From the NCBI RefSeq assembly GCF_044647545.1, contig NZ_CP172818.1: a DNA stretch of 64,000 nucleotides; one strand, 5' to 3'. Position numbers and translations under genes: made by a program. Each line of letters begins with the position of its first letter. The stretch's first letter is position 1. This DNA is from Escherichia coli (GTDB taxonomy: Bacteria > Pseudomonadota > Gammaproteobacteria > Enterobacterales > Enterobacteriaceae). Below the pieces are notes generated by a model, which did not search any database, was not told the DNA's origin, and was given only the letters and a program-made list of their open reading frames with translations. Positions 43,858 to 47,974 of this stretch are shown piece after piece.

Positions 43858-44004
43858 GATTCGCCTGAACATGCCCTTTTTTCGTAAGTAAGCAACATAA
43901 GCTGTCACGTTTTGTGATGGCTATTAGAAATTCCTATGCAACAACTGAAAAAAAATTACAAAAAATGCTTTCTGAACTGAACAAAAAAGAGTAAAGTTAG
44001 TCGC

Positions 44005-44113
44005 GTAGGGTACAGAGGTAAGATGTTCTATCTTTCAGACCTTTTACTTCACGTAATCGGATTTGGCTGAATATTTTAGCCGCCCCAGTCAGTAATGACT
44101 GGGGCGTTTTTTA
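44005..44113 (+). ncRNA. spf: Spot 42 small regulatory RNA, 109 nt, including its intrinsic terminator
   Basis: gtagggtacagaggtaagatgttctatctttcagacc..gccgccccagtcagtaatgactggggcgtttttta. Confidence 0.95.
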
Positions 44114-44138
44114 TTGGGCGAAAGAAAAGATCCGTAAT

Positions 44139-44222
44139 GCCTGATGCGCCATGTTTATCAGGCCAACGGTAGAAGTGTAATCTATTGAATTTACTGGCCG
44201 GATACGCCACATCCGGCACAAG
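44139..44222. repeat. REP-like palindromic elements
   Basis: tgcctgatgcgccatgtttatcaggcc .. ggccggatacgccacatccggcac. Confidence 0.7.
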
Positions 44223-44238
44223 CATTAAGGCAAGAAAA

Positions 44239-44871
44239 TTATTCGCCGTCCTGCGTTTCTTCTACAGGCTGCATCTCGCTAAACCAGGTATCCAGTTTCT
44301 GCCGCAGCTTGTCCACGCCTTGTTTCTTCAGTGAAGAGAAGGTTTCAACCTGCACATCACCGTTAAACGCCAGCACCGCTTCACGCACCATATTCAATTG
44401 CGCTTTACGTGCGCCGCTTGCCAGTTTGTCCGCTTTGGTCAGCAGCACCAGCACGGCGATATTGCTGTCTACCGCCCACTCAATCATCTGCTGATCCAAA
44501 TCTTTCAGCGGATGGCGAATATCCATTAGCACCACCAGACCTTGCAGGCTCTGACGTTTTTCGAGGTACTCGCCGAGCGCGCGCTGCCATTTGCGCTTCA
44601 TCTCTTCCGGGACTTCCGCATAACCGTACCCAGGCAAGTCAACCAGACGCTTGCCGTCAGCCACTTCAAACAGGTTGATAAGCTGGGTGCGCCCTGGGGT
44701 TTTTGAGGTCCGCGCCAGGCTTTTCTGGTTAGTCAGCGTGTTCAGCGCGCTGGATTTACCTGCGTTGGAACGGCCTGCAAAAGCCACTTCAATTCCGGTA
44801 TCGGAAGGTAGGTGGCGAATATCAGGCGCACTCATCACAAAATGCGTCTGTTGATAATTCAAATTAGTCAA
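44239..44871 (-). CDS. engB: ribosome biogenesis GTP-binding protein EngB/YihA, 210 aa
   Basis: (M)[20 protein letters not shown].. with G1 motif GRSNAGKSS; apparent TTG start. Confidence 0.93.
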
Positions 44872-45141
44872 AGCGGTCGTCTCCGTCAGTCAAAGCTTTG
44901 CGGCGATTATACCTGAACCATAATAAAAGGCGGATTTTTCGGCGTGAGCGTTGTAAGTAAAAGCCATACGCTTTGTGAGACATTGCCGATAGTCTTTATG
45001 CGAAATAGCAGAGAAAATTCTGCGATGCATGTCAAATAAGCTATATAAATCAGTTAATTGCTTTTATATAAAACTCTGAAAATGTGCAAATACTGATGGC
45101 GGTTGATTGTTTGTTTAAAGCAAAGGCGTAAAGTAGCACCC

Positions 45142-45384
45142 ATAGAGCGAGGACGCTAACAGGAACAATGACTCAGGATGAGGGTCAGGAGCGCCAGGAG
45201 GCGAAGACAGAGGATTGTCAGGAAGACAAACGTCCGGAGACGTAATTAAACGGAAATGGAATCAACACGGATTGTTCCGGCTAATGGAAAAACAGGGTGT
45301 GTTGGCGGCCTGCAAGGATTGTAAGACCCGTTAAGGGTTATGAGTCAGGAAAAAAGGCGACAGAGTAATCTGTCGCCTTTTTTC
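45142..45384 (+). ncRNA. csrC: CsrC small RNA (CsrA-sequestering), about 243 nt
   Basis: Multiple GGA motifs (caggatga, aggagc, caggaag, acggaaatgg, caaggatt, tcaggaaa) ending in hairpin ggcgacagagtaatctgtcgcc plus T-run. Confidence 0.9.
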
Positions 45385-45452
45385 TTTGCTTGCTTTCTGT
45401 TAGATTCCGCCGCAAATCTATACTGAATAAAACGGCTAAAAGACGAACCATT

Positions 45453-45962
45453 ATGAAACCATCATCTTCAAACTCACGCAGCAAAGGTCATGCAAAAGCG
45501 CGTCGAAAAACACGCGAGGAGCTGGATCAGGAAGCTCGTGACCGTAAGCGTCAGAAAAAACGTCGTGGTCATGCGCCGGGCAGCCGCGCAGCGGGCGGTA
45601 ACACCTCGTCAGGCAGCAAAGGCCAGAACGCACCAAAAGATCCACGTATTGGCAGTAAAACCCCTATTCCATTGGGCGTGACTGAAAAAGTCACCAAACA
45701 GCACAAACCGAAGAGTGAGAAACCTATGCTTTCACCGCAGGCGGAGTTGGAATTACTGGAAACGGATGAGCGTCTGGATGCGCTGCTGGAACGTCTGGAA
45801 GCAGGCGAAACCCTGAGCGCCGAAGAGCAATCCTGGGTGGATGCTAAACTGGATCGTATTGATGAGTTGATGCAGAAACTCGGCCTCTCTTATGACGATG
45901 ACGAAGAAGAGGAAGAAGACGAGAAGCAAGAAGACATGATGCGTCTGCTGCGGGGCAACTAA
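45453..45962 (+). CDS. yihI: Der GTPase-activating protein YihI, 169 aa
   Basis: [46 protein letters not shown]..; internal ATG of track ORF. Confidence 0.92.
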
Positions 45963-46150
45963 CGGATTGCCGCCGTGGGCCTTCCCGTTCTGCTGATAAC
46001 CCTTCCGGTTATATGTTATCTGGTGTGGTTATTCGTTAAACTACAGCGGTTGTCGCGGCGACAAAAGTGGCTGCGCAACCGGCTGATGACCCGAAACGGG
46101 CATCCGCCGGTACGCCGTAGCCGCCAGAGACGCCATCGGAAGGAGTGAGC

Positions 46151-47524
46151 ATGTCTGTACAGCAAATCGACTGGGATCTGGCCCTGATCCAGAAATATAA
46201 CTATTCCGGGCCACGATACACCTCGTACCCGACCGCGCTGGAGTTTTCAGAAGACTTCGGCGAACAGGCGTTTTTACAAGCCGTGGCGCGCTATCCTGAG
46301 CGTCCATTATCTCTCTACGTACATATTCCGTTCTGCCATAAGCTTTGTTACTTCTGCGGTTGCAATAAGATAGTTACTCGCCAGCAGCACAAGGCCGATC
46401 AGTATCTGGACGCGCTGGAGCAAGAAATCGTCCATCGTGCACCGCTTTTTGCCGGGCGCAAGGTGAGCCAGCTGCACTGGGGCGGTGGTACGCCGACGTA
46501 TCTGAACAAAGCGCAAATCAGCCGTCTGATGAAGCTGCTGCGCGAAAACTTCCAGTTCAATGCCGATGCGGAGATTTCGATCGAAGTCGATCCGCGCGAA
46601 ATCGAACTGGATGTACTCGATCATTTACGCGCCGAGGGCTTTAATCGCCTGAGCATGGGCGTGCAGGACTTCAACAAAGAAGTGCAACGTCTGGTTAACC
46701 GCGAGCAGGATGAAGAGTTCATCTTTGCACTGCTTAACCATGCGCGTGAGATTGGCTTTACCTCCACCAACATCGACCTGATTTACGGTCTGCCGAAACA
46801 GACGCCGGAAAGTTTTGCCTTTACCCTGAAACGTGTGGCGGAGCTGAACCCCGATCGTCTGAGCGTCTTTAACTACGCGCATTTGCCGACCATTTTTGCT
46901 GCTCAGCGCAAAATCAAAGATGCTGACCTGCCGAGTCCGCAGCAAAAACTCGATATCCTGCAGGAAACCATTGCCTTCCTGACGCAATCGGGCTATCAGT
47001 TTATCGGGATGGATCACTTTGCCCGCCCGGATGACGAGCTGGCGGTGGCCCAGCGTGAAGGCGTGCTGCATCGTAACTTCCAGGGCTACACCACTCAGGG
47101 CGATACCGATCTGCTGGGGATGGGCGTTTCCGCCATCAGTATGATTGGCGACTGCTACGCGCAGAACCAGAAAGAGTTGAAGCACTACTATCAGCAAGTG
47201 GATGAACAAGGCAACGCGCTGTGGCGTGGTATTGCGCTAACGCGTGATGACTGTATTCGCCGCGATGTGATTAAGTCGCTCATCTGCAACTTCCGTCTGG
47301 ATTACGCTCCCATTGAGCAACAGTGGGATTTGCACTTCGCTGATTACTTTGCGGAAGATCTCAAGCTGCTCGCCCCGTTAGCAAAAGATGGGCTGGTGGA
47401 TGTGGATGAGAAGGGGATTCAGGTGACGGCGAAAGGTCGCTTGCTGATCCGCAACATTTGCATGTGCTTTGATACCTATCTGCGCCAGAAAGCGCGGATG
47501 CAGCAGTTCTCACGGGTGATTTAA
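46151..47524 (+). CDS. hemN: oxygen-independent coproporphyrinogen III oxidase (radical SAM), 457 aa
   Basis: Radical SAM CxxxCxxC (CHKLCYFCGC); start at second Met MSVQQIDWDL. Confidence 0.95.
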   Translation: MSVQQIDWDLALIQKYNYSGPRYTSYPTALEFSEDFGEQAFLQAVARYPERPLSLYVHIPFCHKLCYFCGCNKIVTRQQHKADQYLDALEQEIVHRAPLFAGRKVSQLHWGGGTPTYLNKAQISRLMKLLRENFQFNADAEISIEVDPREIELDVLDHLRAEGFNRLSMGVQDFNKEVQRLVNREQDEEFIFALLNHAREIGFTSTNIDLIYGLPKQTPESFAFTLKRVAELNPDRLSVFNYAHLPTIFAAQRKIKDADLPSPQQKLDILQETIAFLTQSGYQFIGMDHFARPDDELAVAQREGVLHRNFQGYTTQGDTDLLGMGVSAISMIGDCYAQNQKELKHYYQQVDEQGNALWRGIALTRDDCIRRDVIKSLICNFRLDYAPIEQQWDLHFADYFAEDLKLLAPLAKDGLVDVDEKGIQVTAKGRLLIRNICMCFDTYLRQKARMQQFSRVI

Positions 47525-47745: not shown

Positions 47746-47974
47746 ACGAGCTTCAGCTAAACAGCCCAATCATCGCGGCACACAGCACGGCAGCAACGGC
47801 AGTTTGCGGTGTGTGGCTGTCAACTGCGCCACTCGATACCAGATTAATTATTGATTCCAGCATAATGACTCTCCCCGTTTTCCGGGCAAGATCATACTGA
47901 ACTTATCGGAACAGTAAAGCGCAAAATACCAGCAATTTGCGCTCAATAATCAATCTTTACACACAAGCCGTGAA

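What the first reader, a model, noticed from the sequence alone, without database searches (positions are those of the whole stretch)
45963..46148. Possible small membrane-protein ORF in the yihI-hemN spacer
In the frame following the yihI stop, the spacer encodes ..IAAVGLPVLLITLPVICYLVWLFVKLQRLSRRQKWLRNRLMTRNGHPPVRRSRQRRHRKE-stop: a hydrophobic helix followed by a highly basic tail, ending just before hemN. It has only non-ATG candidate starts (GTG 45975 or 46023, TTG 46050) apart from an internal ATG at 46086. It may correspond to an annotated small protein here (possibly yshB; I am not certain of its sequence or frame).
Basis: partly seen in the sequence, partly recalled or inferred. Interest (0 to 1): 0.3.

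Follow-up and report, generated by a model that had tools for sequence, protein, structure and literature searches.

The report
Unannotated small membrane protein after yihI
The gap between the E. coli genes yihI and hemN holds a real, conserved and translated gene for a 57-residue membrane protein; it is missing from the reference annotation but already listed in two large-scale surveys, and its function is unknown.

Summary
A 57-codon ORF (GTG 45975 to TGA 46148) fills the yihI-hemN spacer. It encodes one very hydrophobic helix and an arginine-rich tail.

It is not yshB, which lies at 47753-47863 on the minus strand. The MG1655 record annotates nothing in this spacer. Pfam and NCBIfam have no family for it.

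It behaves as a coding gene. Every one of 79 usable Enterobacterales loci has an equivalent ORF just after yihI. In 37 independent species pairs, pN/pS is 0.51 in this frame (p=3e-19) and about 1 in the shifted frames.

Its start lacks a Shine-Dalgarno sequence and sits 3-14 nt after the yihI stop. The ORF stays with yihI where hemN is absent or 60-150 nt away, so it is not just a hemN leader.

Published ribosome footprints cover it: most likely X067 in EHEC (Neuhaus 2016) and, certainly, cluster 1920 (Fesenko 2024).

The same DNA carries a second layer: frozen synonymous sites at 46014-46058 (probably hemN's promoter), a structured hemN leader, and a RyhB pairing site.

Verdict: real and catalogued, but unnamed and uncharacterised. 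Moderate interest.

The parts
45453..45962 (+). yihI (Der GTPase-activating protein), the upstream cistron. Its TAA stop is at 45960-45962.
   Evidence: The MG1655 coordinate equals the window coordinate plus 4005894.
45975..46148 (+). Small ORF of 57 codons plus stop (GTG start, TGA stop): MGLPVLLITLPVICYLVWLFVKLQRLSRRQKWLRNRLMTRNGHPPVRRSRQRRHRKE.
   Evidence: Orthologues are present in all usable loci. Coding signature. Ribosome footprints: PMC11188072 Table S4 and PMC4765031 Table 1 entry X067.
45981..46037 (+). Codons 3-21 (LPVLLITLPVICYLVWLFV), the predicted transmembrane helix.
   Evidence: The best 19-residue Kyte-Doolittle mean is 2.52, and 2.1-3.0 in nine diverse homologues. The middle codon position is almost always T while positions 1 and 3 vary. 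AF2 predicts a helix over residues 3-41, with pLDDT 82-89 over the first 20 residues.
46038..46145 (+). Codons 22-57, a basic tail predicted to be cytoplasmic (15 K+R, 1 D+E). It includes the conserved juxtamembrane motif K-L-x-R-L-S-R-R.
   Evidence: K22 and L26 are invariant and L23 and S27 nearly so. Past residue 41 the AF2 model is low-confidence and non-helical.
46014..46058 (.). Core conserved at the nucleotide level, inside the ORF (codons 14-28). Synonymous sites are almost frozen. It contains a -10-like TAAACT at 46037-46042. Inferred to be hemN's own promoter region.
   Evidence: The commonest synonymous codon has frequency 0.971 here. In hemN the mean is 0.68 and the best 10-codon window reaches 0.916. 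The promoter assignment is an inference. It rests on the 5' end of the RNA fragment at about 46047. The simple promoter scan found nothing.
46047..46161 (+). Structured hemN leader RNA, covering the 3' two-thirds of the ORF and the hemN start. It matches the 115-nt 'hemN.RBS' fragment that accumulates without PNPase.
   Evidence: PMC7145675 Table S4 gives 4051941-4052055. MFE is -52.5 kcal/mol, z = -3.7. Applied to 33 genera, the E. coli structure is 72% paired against 35-47% in slid controls, with a covariation score of 0.171 against 0.07-0.11. The RNAalifold consensus is weak.
46137..46163 (+). Predicted RyhB pairing site. It spans the last ORF codons, hemN's Shine-Dalgarno sequence (GGAAGGAG, 46138-46145), the ORF stop and hemN's AUG.
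   Evidence: Duplex with the RyhB core is -27.0 kcal/mol. This is reached by 1.6% of dinucleotide shuffles and 1.5% of tiles across the window. The RIL-seq partner is listed as 'ryhB, direct' in PMC7145675 Table S4.
46151..47524 (+). hemN (oxygen-independent coproporphyrinogen III oxidase), the downstream cistron. Its ATG lies 2 nt after the ORF's TGA.
   Evidence: Anti-SD pairing is -8.3 kcal/mol.

Best explanation
The ORF at 45975-46148 is a genuine protein-coding gene. It is the middle cistron of a yihI-smORF-hemN transcript. It makes a 57-residue single-pass inner-membrane protein with a very short N-terminus outside, one helix (about residues 3-21), and an arginine-rich tail of about 36 residues in the cytoplasm.

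Shown here:
- The ORF, its hydrophobic helix, a K-L-x-R-L-S juxtamembrane motif and a basic tail are kept across Enterobacteriaceae, Serratia, Pectobacterium/Brenneria and Budvicia.
- Substitutions follow a coding pattern in this frame only.
- The start codon (ATG, GTG or TTG) lies 3-14 nt after the yihI stop in all but one locus where both were located, and in E. coli it has no Shine-Dalgarno sequence.
- The ORF follows yihI even where hemN is missing or distant.

From the literature: ribosome footprints cover about 85% of the ORF in K-12 and, if X067 is this ORF, in EHEC. A weak Onc112 initiation signal maps to the GTG.

Inferred:
- Ribosomes that finish yihI re-initiate at the GTG, so the small protein is made in step with YihI.
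- In Enterobacteriaceae, ribosomes stopping at UGA, 2 nt before hemN's AUG, open the structured hemN leader and pass on to hemN on read-through transcripts.
- The same DNA also holds hemN's own promoter and leader, including a RyhB target. This would explain the frozen synonymous sites.
- The protein is membrane-inserted and works together with YihI. What it does is not known.
For: Presence:
- An equivalent ORF is found in all 79 usable loci from one genome per species.
- It is intact in a clean Salmonella assembly.

Coding signature:
- 37 independent pairs give pN/pS 0.51 (p=3e-19) in frame, against 0.95 and 1.34 out of frame.
- Pooled pairwise dN/dS is 0.50, against 0.85 and 1.37.
- In the helix, the middle codon base is nearly invariant T while bases 1 and 3 vary.
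- Internal length differences are whole codons, including a 14-codon deletion in Buttiauxella.

Start:
- 71 of 75 sequences have ATG (28), GTG (17) or TTG (26) at or next to the conserved position.
- Where both were located, the start lies 3-14 nt after the yihI stop in all but one case.
- Anti-SD pairing is -3.3 kcal/mol, within the random range of -2.0 +/- 2.4. hemN scores -8.3.

Link to yihI rather than hemN:
- L082 and L083 have yihI, the ORF 3 nt later, then a terminator and glnG, with no hemN.
- In L087 and in Pectobacterium/Brenneria the ORF ends 60-150 nt before hemN.
- Pseudocitrobacter kept the ORF after an insertion separated it from yihI.

Family:
- A profile search found 28 cluster representatives, nearly all 41-72 aa with the same architecture.

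Topology:
- Kyte-Doolittle 2.1-3.0; an uncharged N-flank of 0-5 aa in seven of nine homologues (one Lys in the other two); tail net charge +7 to +15.
- AF2 predicts a helix over residues 3-41.

Translation:
- PMC11188072 Table S4 lists NC_000913.3 4051868-4052039 with 8 Onc112 TIS reads, 116 RPF reads and coverage 0.877. It belongs to the 'purifying selection' set.
- PMC4765031 lists X067: 174 bp, footprint RPKM 162, coverage 0.84, promoter assigned to yihI.

Read-through:
- No terminator is predicted after yihI.
- No Term-seq 3' end is listed between 4051237 and 4053422.
Against: - No protein has been detected. X067 has no mass-spectrometry hits in Neuhaus 2016, and I found no tagging experiment.
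- The initiation signal is weak (8 reads).
- I found the ORF neither in the main texts of Weaver 2019 and Stringer 2021 nor in the one Stringer supplementary file held, which is truncated.
- Selection on the peptide is mild: pN/pS 0.51, against 0.088 for hemN.
- Part of the conservation is at the nucleotide level. Synonymous divergence is 0.20, against 0.47 in hemN. A promoter, a structured leader and a RyhB site overlap the ORF, so some amino-acid conservation (K22-L23 over TAAACT; R-K-E over the SD) may be a by-product.
- If hemN's promoter fires near 46049, hemN-specific mRNA cannot encode the full protein.
- Four of 75 sequences lack a canonical start at the expected place.
- Coupling to yihI and to hemN, membrane insertion, and any link to YihI function are untested.
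Confidence: 0.75

Rival explanations
1. It is a cis-acting upstream ORF. The act of translating it matters, by unfolding the structured hemN leader and delivering ribosomes to hemN's start. The peptide itself has no function.
For: - The stop lies 2 nt before hemN's ATG in nearly all Enterobacteriaceae and 6 nt before it in Serratia.
- The ORF's 3' two-thirds lie in an RNA that folds at -52.5 kcal/mol and is partly conserved.
- The tail sequence varies, and helix 3 of the RNA shows changes on both sides at 9 of 13 pairs.
- Selection on the peptide is mild.
Against: - The helix and the K-L-x-R-L-S motif are kept where the ORF cannot couple to hemN. hemN is absent in L082 and L083. The ORF ends 60-150 nt upstream of hemN in L087 and Pectobacterium/Brenneria.
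- The N-terminal helix lies outside the hemN leader fragment and still shows pN/pS 0.45, p=2e-7.
- A pure coupling device needs neither a transmembrane helix nor a net charge of +7 to +15.
Confidence: 0.12
2. It is non-coding. The spacer is conserved because it holds hemN's promoter, a structured 5' leader and a RyhB site. The open frame is a by-product, and the footprints reflect pervasive low-level translation.
For: - Synonymous sites at 46014-46058 are more conserved than any stretch of hemN.
- A PNPase-sensitive structured fragment and a RyhB interaction map here.
- The stops in the other two frames sit in conserved DNA, so 'open in 75/75' is weak evidence on its own.
- The TIS signal is low.
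- Fesenko et al. note that many such signals may be spurious.
Against: - Depletion of nonsynonymous change is specific to this frame in three separate segments, measured on independent species pairs.
- Period-3 conservation of the middle T in the helix.
- Whole-codon indels.
- A start codon is kept within 14 nt of the yihI stop in all but one locus where both were located.
- The peptide architecture is kept at 25-40% identity in distant taxa.
- The ORF persists without hemN.
Confidence: 0.08
3. It is the annotated small protein YshB.
For: None beyond being in the same neighbourhood.
Against: - yshB is annotated at MG1655 4053647-4053757 on the minus strand, between hemN and glnG.
- That stretch (window 47753-47863, minus strand) translates to an unrelated 36-aa sequence.
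- The ORF does not hit Pfam's YshB model PF28018 or any other family.
Confidence: 0

Closest known systems
Intergenic smORF NC_000913.3_ORF.50430, Entero67K cluster 1920 / Escherichia_21857 (Fesenko, Sahakyan, Shabalina and Koonin 2024, 'The Cryptic Bacterial Microproteome', PMC11188072)
   Same: Same coordinates (4051868-4052039, plus strand) and same 57-aa sequence. It is predicted to be transmembrane, placed in the set under purifying selection (their dN/dS is 0.544), and listed with Onc112 initiation reads and ribosome-protected-fragment reads.
   Different: It is one row among 67,297 clusters. I found it only in the supplementary tables; hemN and yihI do not occur in the main text. It has no name, no context analysis and no experiment. 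The link to yihI, the overlap with hemN's leader and the reach beyond Enterobacteriaceae are not described there.
X067, one of 72 'novel genes' in E. coli O157:H7 EDL933 (Neuhaus et al. 2016, BMC Genomics 17:133, PMC4765031)
   Same: A 174-bp ORF, exactly the length of 45975-46148. Its promoter is assigned to yihI, meaning polycistronic transcription. Footprint RPKM is 162, coverage 0.84 and ribosomal coverage value 0.64. It was classed as 'real'.
   Different: I could not map the EDL933 coordinates (4916583-4916756) onto the window, because that record is not held. Identity therefore rests on length and neighbour. There is no mass-spectrometry support and no function.
YshB (b4686, Pfam PF28018), the annotated small protein of this neighbourhood
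   Same: A small hydrophobic protein encoded next to hemN and conserved in Enterobacterales. It appears in loci L084, L087 and L088.
   Different: It sits in a different spacer (hemN-glnG), on the opposite strand, with an unrelated sequence and no basic tail.
Characterised E. coli small inner-membrane proteins with an N-terminal helix and a cytoplasmic tail, such as AcrZ and BcsF (comparison from my own knowledge; both sequences appear)
   Same: About 50-65 residues, one N-terminal transmembrane helix, a charged C-terminal tail, and a gene sited next to that of a larger protein.
   Different: No sequence similarity. Pfam, NCBIfam and the PDB give no hit. No partner is known. The tail is unusually arginine-rich. 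The coding DNA doubles as the regulatory region of the next gene.

Membership tests
YshB (PF28018) | Encoded between hemN and glnG on the strand opposite to hemN. | tested here: not met
   The MG1655 annotation puts yshB at 4053647-4053757 on the minus strand. The finding lies between yihI and hemN on the plus strand.
YshB (PF28018) | Sequence matches the YshB family. | tested here: not met
   Window 47753-47863 (minus strand) gives MLESIINLVSSGAVDSHTPQTAVAAVLCAAMIGLFS, which is unrelated. A Pfam scan of the ORF gives no family at E<=10 for the E. coli sequence.
Entero67K cluster 1920 (Fesenko et al. 2024) | Identical coordinates and peptide sequence. | tested here: met
   NC_000913.3 4051868-4052039, plus strand, sequence VGLPVLLITLPVICYLVWLFVKLQRLSRRQKWLRNRLMTRNGHPPVRRSRQRRHRKE. 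Window 45975-46145 plus 4005894 gives the same range.
X067 (Neuhaus et al. 2016) | The same ORF in EHEC EDL933. | tested here: inconclusive
   The length (174 bp) and the yihI promoter note match. The EDL933 record is not available to map the coordinates. The spacer is 100% identical in an O157:H7 genome (hit H1).
Protein-coding gene under purifying selection | A deficit of nonsynonymous change specific to the reading frame. | tested here: met
   37 independent pairs give pN/pS 0.51 (p=3e-19). The shifted frames give 0.95 and 1.34, not significant.
Protein-coding gene under purifying selection | Frame preserved through insertions and deletions, and across distant taxa. | tested here: met
   Whole-codon gaps only in the 75-sequence alignment. 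ORFs of 44-62 aa are present in Serratia, Budvicia, Pectobacterium, Brenneria and unnamed Enterobacterales.
Translated ORF | Ribosome footprints across the ORF and an initiation peak at the start codon. | not testable with these tools
   Literature only. RPF coverage 0.877 and 8 Onc112 TIS reads in K-12. Coverage 0.84 and RPKM 162 for X067 in EHEC. The raw data were not re-analysed.
Single-pass inner-membrane small protein (N-out, C-in) | A hydrophobic segment of about 19 residues or more, able to span the membrane. | tested here: met
   The best 19-residue Kyte-Doolittle mean is 2.52 in E. coli and 2.1-3.0 in nine homologues. AF2 predicts a helix over residues 3-41.
Single-pass inner-membrane small protein (N-out, C-in) | Positive-inside charge distribution. 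| tested here: met
   The N-flank is 0-5 residues with 0-1 positive charge. The tail has a net charge of +7 to +15.
Single-pass inner-membrane small protein (N-out, C-in) | The protein is detected in the membrane fraction. | not testable with these tools
   I found no tagging or fractionation data. X067 has no mass-spectrometry hits.
Translationally coupled cistron (termination-reinitiation) | Start codon within a few nucleotides of the upstream stop, and no Shine-Dalgarno sequence of its own. | tested here: met
   The gap is 3-14 nt in 66 of 67 sequences where both ends were located. Anti-SD pairing is -3.3 kcal/mol against a random -2.0 +/- 2.4. Functional coupling itself is untested.
Regulatory leader peptide / upstream ORF of hemN | Always positioned to act on hemN's start, with a peptide sequence free to vary. 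| tested here: not met
   The stop is 2 nt from hemN's ATG in Enterobacteriaceae. But it is 60-150 nt away in Pectobacteriaceae, 130 nt away in L087, and hemN is absent in L082. The peptide is under selection.

The most novel reading that the evidence does not exclude
The 57-residue protein is a dedicated membrane-anchored partner of YihI, the protein that activates the GTPase Der in 50S ribosome assembly. It would be made one-for-one with YihI by re-initiation. Its arginine-rich tail would bind YihI's acidic C-terminus or ribosomal RNA. That would tether or sequester this regulator at the inner membrane. Meanwhile its coding DNA serves as promoter, structured leader and RyhB-controlled start region for the iron-sulfur enzyme HemN, packing three layers of information into 174 bp.
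Probability: 0.12. Interest if true: 0.7.

Novelty: already known. Interest (0 to 1): 0.42.

Why it matters
E. coli K-12 has the most carefully curated list of small proteins, yet this ORF is absent from it.

- The ORF is conserved across at least four families of Enterobacterales, shows a coding substitution pattern, and is covered by ribosome footprints. It is a strong candidate for annotation and naming.
- Its fixed position directly after yihI gives a concrete, testable lead to the poorly understood YihI/Der branch of ribosome assembly.
- The locus is also a compact example of overlapping information: a coding sequence, a probable internal promoter, a structured leader and a small-RNA target. 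This matters for anyone who mutates or recodes this region, or who interprets hemN regulation by iron and oxygen.

Tried and rejected
- **yshB identity:** rejected.
- **Rfam:** a scan of 44000-47000 at E<=1 found only CsrC, Spot 42 and chance hits, and nothing in the spacer.
- **Promoter and terminator scan:** no sigma-70 match anywhere in 45300-46300, and no terminator after yihI.
- **Protein family and structure searches:** Pfam, NCBIfam and PDB profile searches gave no credible family.
- **UniRef name:** the cluster name 'High mobility group protein Z' has no support in those searches. I treat it as an annotation artefact, probably prompted by the basic tail.
- **Ribosome-profiling papers:** the Weaver 2019 and Stringer 2021 main texts do not mention the locus. 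The Weaver supplements are not held, and the Stringer supplement is truncated.
- **hemN transcription start:** searches in the SMRT-Cappable-seq and Cappable-seq supplements found nothing. Troup et al. 1995 is not held. The internal promoter therefore remains an inference.
- **RNAalifold on 33 genera:** it gave only a weak consensus of -8.6 kcal/mol. The E. coli structure had to be tested directly.
- **Salmonella assembly CP073335:** it is full of indel errors and was discarded. A clean Salmonella contig was used instead.
- **Retracted inference:** seemed to show the ORF lost in Pectobacterium and Brenneria. That script only looked for ORFs ending within 40 nt of hemN. One search shows the ORF is present there and simply ends further upstream.
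- **Read-through fusion with YihI:** rejected, because yihI and the ORF are in different frames in many species.
- **Full-length RyhB duplex:** it paired RyhB's terminator and was discarded. Only the single-stranded core was used.

Full report
**1. What is there**

The window is E. coli. The 301 bases around the finding are at least 99% identical in 5,425 of 5,426 complete genomes, and 100% identical in K-12 and O157:H7 strains. MG1655 coordinates equal window coordinates plus 4,005,894.

yihI ends with TAA at 45960-45962, and hemN starts with ATG at 46151. In the frame that follows the yihI stop, a GTG at 45975 opens a 57-codon ORF that ends with TGA at 46146-46148.

**2. It is not yshB, and it is not annotated**

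The MG1655 record includes entries as high as b4837, so it appears up to date. It lists yihI, then hemN, with nothing between them. yshB is on the other side of hemN on the minus strand. In the window that is 47753-47863, which translates to the unrelated MLESIINLVSSGAVDSHTPQTAVAAVLCAAMIGLFS.

The RefSeq E. coli genomes listed show only yihI and hemN under the match. Other searches also drew blanks:
- Rfam finds CsrC (45142-45395) and Spot 42 (44003-44113), but nothing in the spacer.
- Pfam and NCBIfam have no family for the peptide.
- A profile search of PDB sequences finds nothing credible.

**3. Conservation**

I fetched the hemN locus from 80 species-level genomes. In nearly all Enterobacteriaceae an ORF in the same position ends 2 nt before hemN's ATG. 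It reads like LLITLPVICYLVWLFVKLxRLSRRQKWLRNRL...HRKE. Serratia, Budvicia and one Pectobacterium have clearly related versions.

My first script missed four Pectobacterium and Brenneria loci, because there the ORF ends 60-150 nt before hemN. It is nevertheless present, starting 3 nt after the yihI stop. One locus (L022) is too short to judge. Every other locus has the ORF. A clean Salmonella contig has an intact 57-aa version with the same start and stop geometry as E. coli.

Gene callers have occasionally predicted it as a hypothetical protein in Klebsiella, Enterobacter, Lelliottia, Superficieibacter and Citrobacter. A profile search of 1.8 billion representative proteins finds 28 hits, nearly all 41-72 residues long with the same layout. 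In a 31-sequence family alignment, K22 and L26 are invariant and C14, L16, L19, L23 and S27 nearly so.

**4. Is it coding?**

'Open in 75 of 75' is weak evidence on its own, because the stops in the other frames fall in conserved DNA. Stronger evidence comes from 37 phylogenetically independent species pairs:

| Segment | pN/pS in frame | Binomial p |
|---|---|---|
| Whole ORF | 0.51 | 3e-19 |
| N-terminal helix | 0.45 | 2e-7 |
| Core | 0.36 | 7e-6 |
| Tail | 0.57 | 2e-9 |
| Whole ORF, shifted frames | 0.95 and 1.34 | not significant |

Further points:
- In the helix, the middle codon base is almost always T while the first and third bases vary. This is the signature of hydrophobic coding.
- Internal length differences are whole codons, including a 14-codon deletion.
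- Selection is much milder than on hemN, where pN/pS is 0.088 for the same pairs.

**5. The constant partner is yihI**

Of 75 distinct sequences, 71 have a start codon at or next to the conserved position: ATG in 28, GTG in 17 and TTG in 26. In all but one case where both were located, it lies 3-14 nt after the yihI stop. The E. coli GTG has no Shine-Dalgarno sequence: anti-SD pairing is -3.3 kcal/mol against a random -2.0 +/- 2.4, while hemN scores -8.3.

Three contexts separate the ORF from hemN:
- In two metagenomic contigs (L082 and L083) the order is yihA, yihI, the ORF 3 nt later, a terminator hairpin, then glnG. hemN is absent.
- In L087 the ORF starts 3 nt after yihI and ends 130 nt before hemN.
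- In Pseudocitrobacter an insertion of about 150 nt separates the ORF from yihI. The ORF survives with a new ATG and a new stop.

So the ORF is not merely hemN's leader. No terminator is predicted after yihI, and the Term-seq tables of Adams et al. list no 3' end between 4051237 and 4053422. Both fit read-through transcription.

**6. Published translation evidence**

- Fesenko et al. 2024 (PMC11188072, Table S4) list exactly this ORF in K-12, with 8 Onc112 initiation reads, 116 ribosome-protected-fragment reads and 87.7% coverage. It belongs to their purifying-selection set (dN/dS 0.544) and is predicted to be transmembrane.
- Neuhaus et al. 2016 (PMC4765031, Table 1) list X067 in EHEC EDL933: 174 bp, footprint RPKM 162, coverage 0.84, classed as 'real', promoter assigned to yihI, and no mass-spectrometry hits. 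I could not map its coordinates, but the length and the neighbouring gene match.
- I did not find the ORF in the main texts of Weaver 2019 or Stringer 2021.

The ORF's existence and likely translation are therefore already on record, though only as rows in tables.

**7. Predicted protein**

Residues 3-21 are strongly hydrophobic: Kyte-Doolittle mean 2.52, and 2.1-3.0 in nine diverse homologues. The N-flank is 0-5 residues and uncharged in seven of the nine, with a single Lys in the other two. The tail carries a net charge of +7 to +15. By the positive-inside rule this gives N-terminus out and tail in the cytoplasm. AlphaFold2 on the family alignment gives one helix over residues 3-41, with pLDDT 82-89 over the first 20 residues, and a low-confidence tail.

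**8. A second layer in the same DNA**

- **Frozen synonymous sites.** Codons 14-28 (46014-46058) are almost frozen at synonymous sites. The commonest synonymous codon has frequency 0.971. In hemN the mean is 0.68 and the best 10-codon window reaches 0.916. Much of this holds even in Serratia and Pectobacterium. Overall synonymous divergence is 0.20, against 0.47 in hemN.
- **Structured leader.** Cameron et al. 2019 (PMC7145675, Table S4) report a 115-nt 'hemN.RBS' fragment at 4051941-4052055, which is window 46047-46161. It accumulates without PNPase and has RyhB as a direct RIL-seq partner. That stretch folds at -52.5 kcal/mol, z = -3.7. Applied to 33 genera, the E. coli structure is 72% paired against 35-47% for slid controls, with more covariation than the controls. 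RNAalifold finds only a weak consensus.
- **RyhB site.** RyhB's single-stranded core pairs with 46137-46163 at -27.0 kcal/mol. This covers the SD, the ORF's stop and hemN's AUG, and is reached by 1.6% of shuffles.
- **Probable promoter.** The fragment's 5' end lies about 7 nt downstream of a conserved TAAACT (46037-46042). I therefore infer that hemN's own promoter lies inside the ORF. No start-site data could be retrieved to confirm this.

If the inference is right, the full-length protein can only be made from transcripts that begin at yihI.

**9. Most likely mechanism**

The ORF is a translated gene for a small inner-membrane protein made in step with YihI, by re-initiation after the yihI stop. 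In Enterobacteriaceae, its own termination 2 nt before hemN's AUG probably opens the structured leader and feeds ribosomes to hemN on read-through mRNA. The function of the protein is unknown. Its invariable position after yihI makes YihI, the GTPase activator of Der, the first partner to test.

The steps shown and the steps inferred are separated in the explanation section. The rivals are a peptide-independent upstream ORF and a non-coding by-product. Both are disfavoured by the frame-specific selection on the helix and by persistence of the ORF without hemN.

**10. Verdict**

The feature is real and catalogued, but unnamed and uncharacterised, and it overlaps regulatory elements in an interesting way. 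Interest is moderate.

Noticed in passing
window 46014-46058: Synonymous sites of 15 consecutive codons are almost invariant across genera. The codons include the rare or infrequent ATA-adjacent TGT TAT, TTA, CTA, CGG and TCG. The stretch contains a -10-like TAAACT at 46037-46042. Some of these codons are kept even in a locus without hemN (L082).
   Followed up: partly
window 46137-46163: hemN's ribosome-binding region is complementary to the single-stranded core of RyhB (-27.0 kcal/mol). This agrees with a published RIL-seq RyhB-hemN interaction, and HemN is an iron-sulfur enzyme.
   Followed up: partly
window 46047-46161: This stretch is a strongly structured RNA (-52.5 kcal/mol, z = -3.7). 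It matches a 115-nt fragment reported to accumulate in a PNPase mutant.
   Followed up: partly
window 45996-46012 and 46007-46038: A perfect palindrome ATAACC-N5-GGTTAT, and a 20-bp-spaced direct repeat GGTTATnnGTTA, lie inside the helix-coding part. The surrounding GATAAC / GTTATA / GTTATC hexamers resemble Fur-box hexamers. Both are conserved in core Enterobacteriaceae only.
   Followed up: no
window 47753-47863 (minus strand): This is the real yshB (36 aa), between hemN and glnG.
   Followed up: yes
window 44003-44113 and 45142-45395: Spot 42 RNA (which also encodes SpfP in the MG1655 annotation) and CsrC RNA lie upstream of yihI. CsrC's terminator ends about 60 nt before the yihI start.
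   Followed up: no
L082 2470-2700; L083: In these Enterobacterales-like metagenomic contigs hemN is missing from this locus. The small ORF is the last gene after yihI and is followed by a hairpin shared with convergent glnG. L23 is replaced there, which destroys the TAAACT hexamer.
   Followed up: partly
L009 and L013 (Pseudocitrobacter), about 150 nt upstream of hemN: An insertion separates yihI from the small ORF. The old N-terminal codons remain after yihI, and the ORF continues from a new ATG and stops 23 nt before hemN.
   Followed up: partly
PMC11188072 Table S7 (E. coli 536 ORF.53914): The ORF's transcript is reported as 2.5 log2 units lower on oxygen deprivation. This is the opposite of what I would expect for a hemN-linked transcript.
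   Followed up: no
P0001, P0005 and P0010: UniRef names this peptide cluster 'High mobility group protein Z'. This looks like a spurious transferred name, probably caused by the basic tail.
   Followed up: no
L090 (Salmonella CP073335): This public assembly has many single-base indels across the locus, and hemN is not even called. The 'frameshifted' version of the ORF seen in it (P0018) is therefore an assembly artefact.
   Followed up: yes
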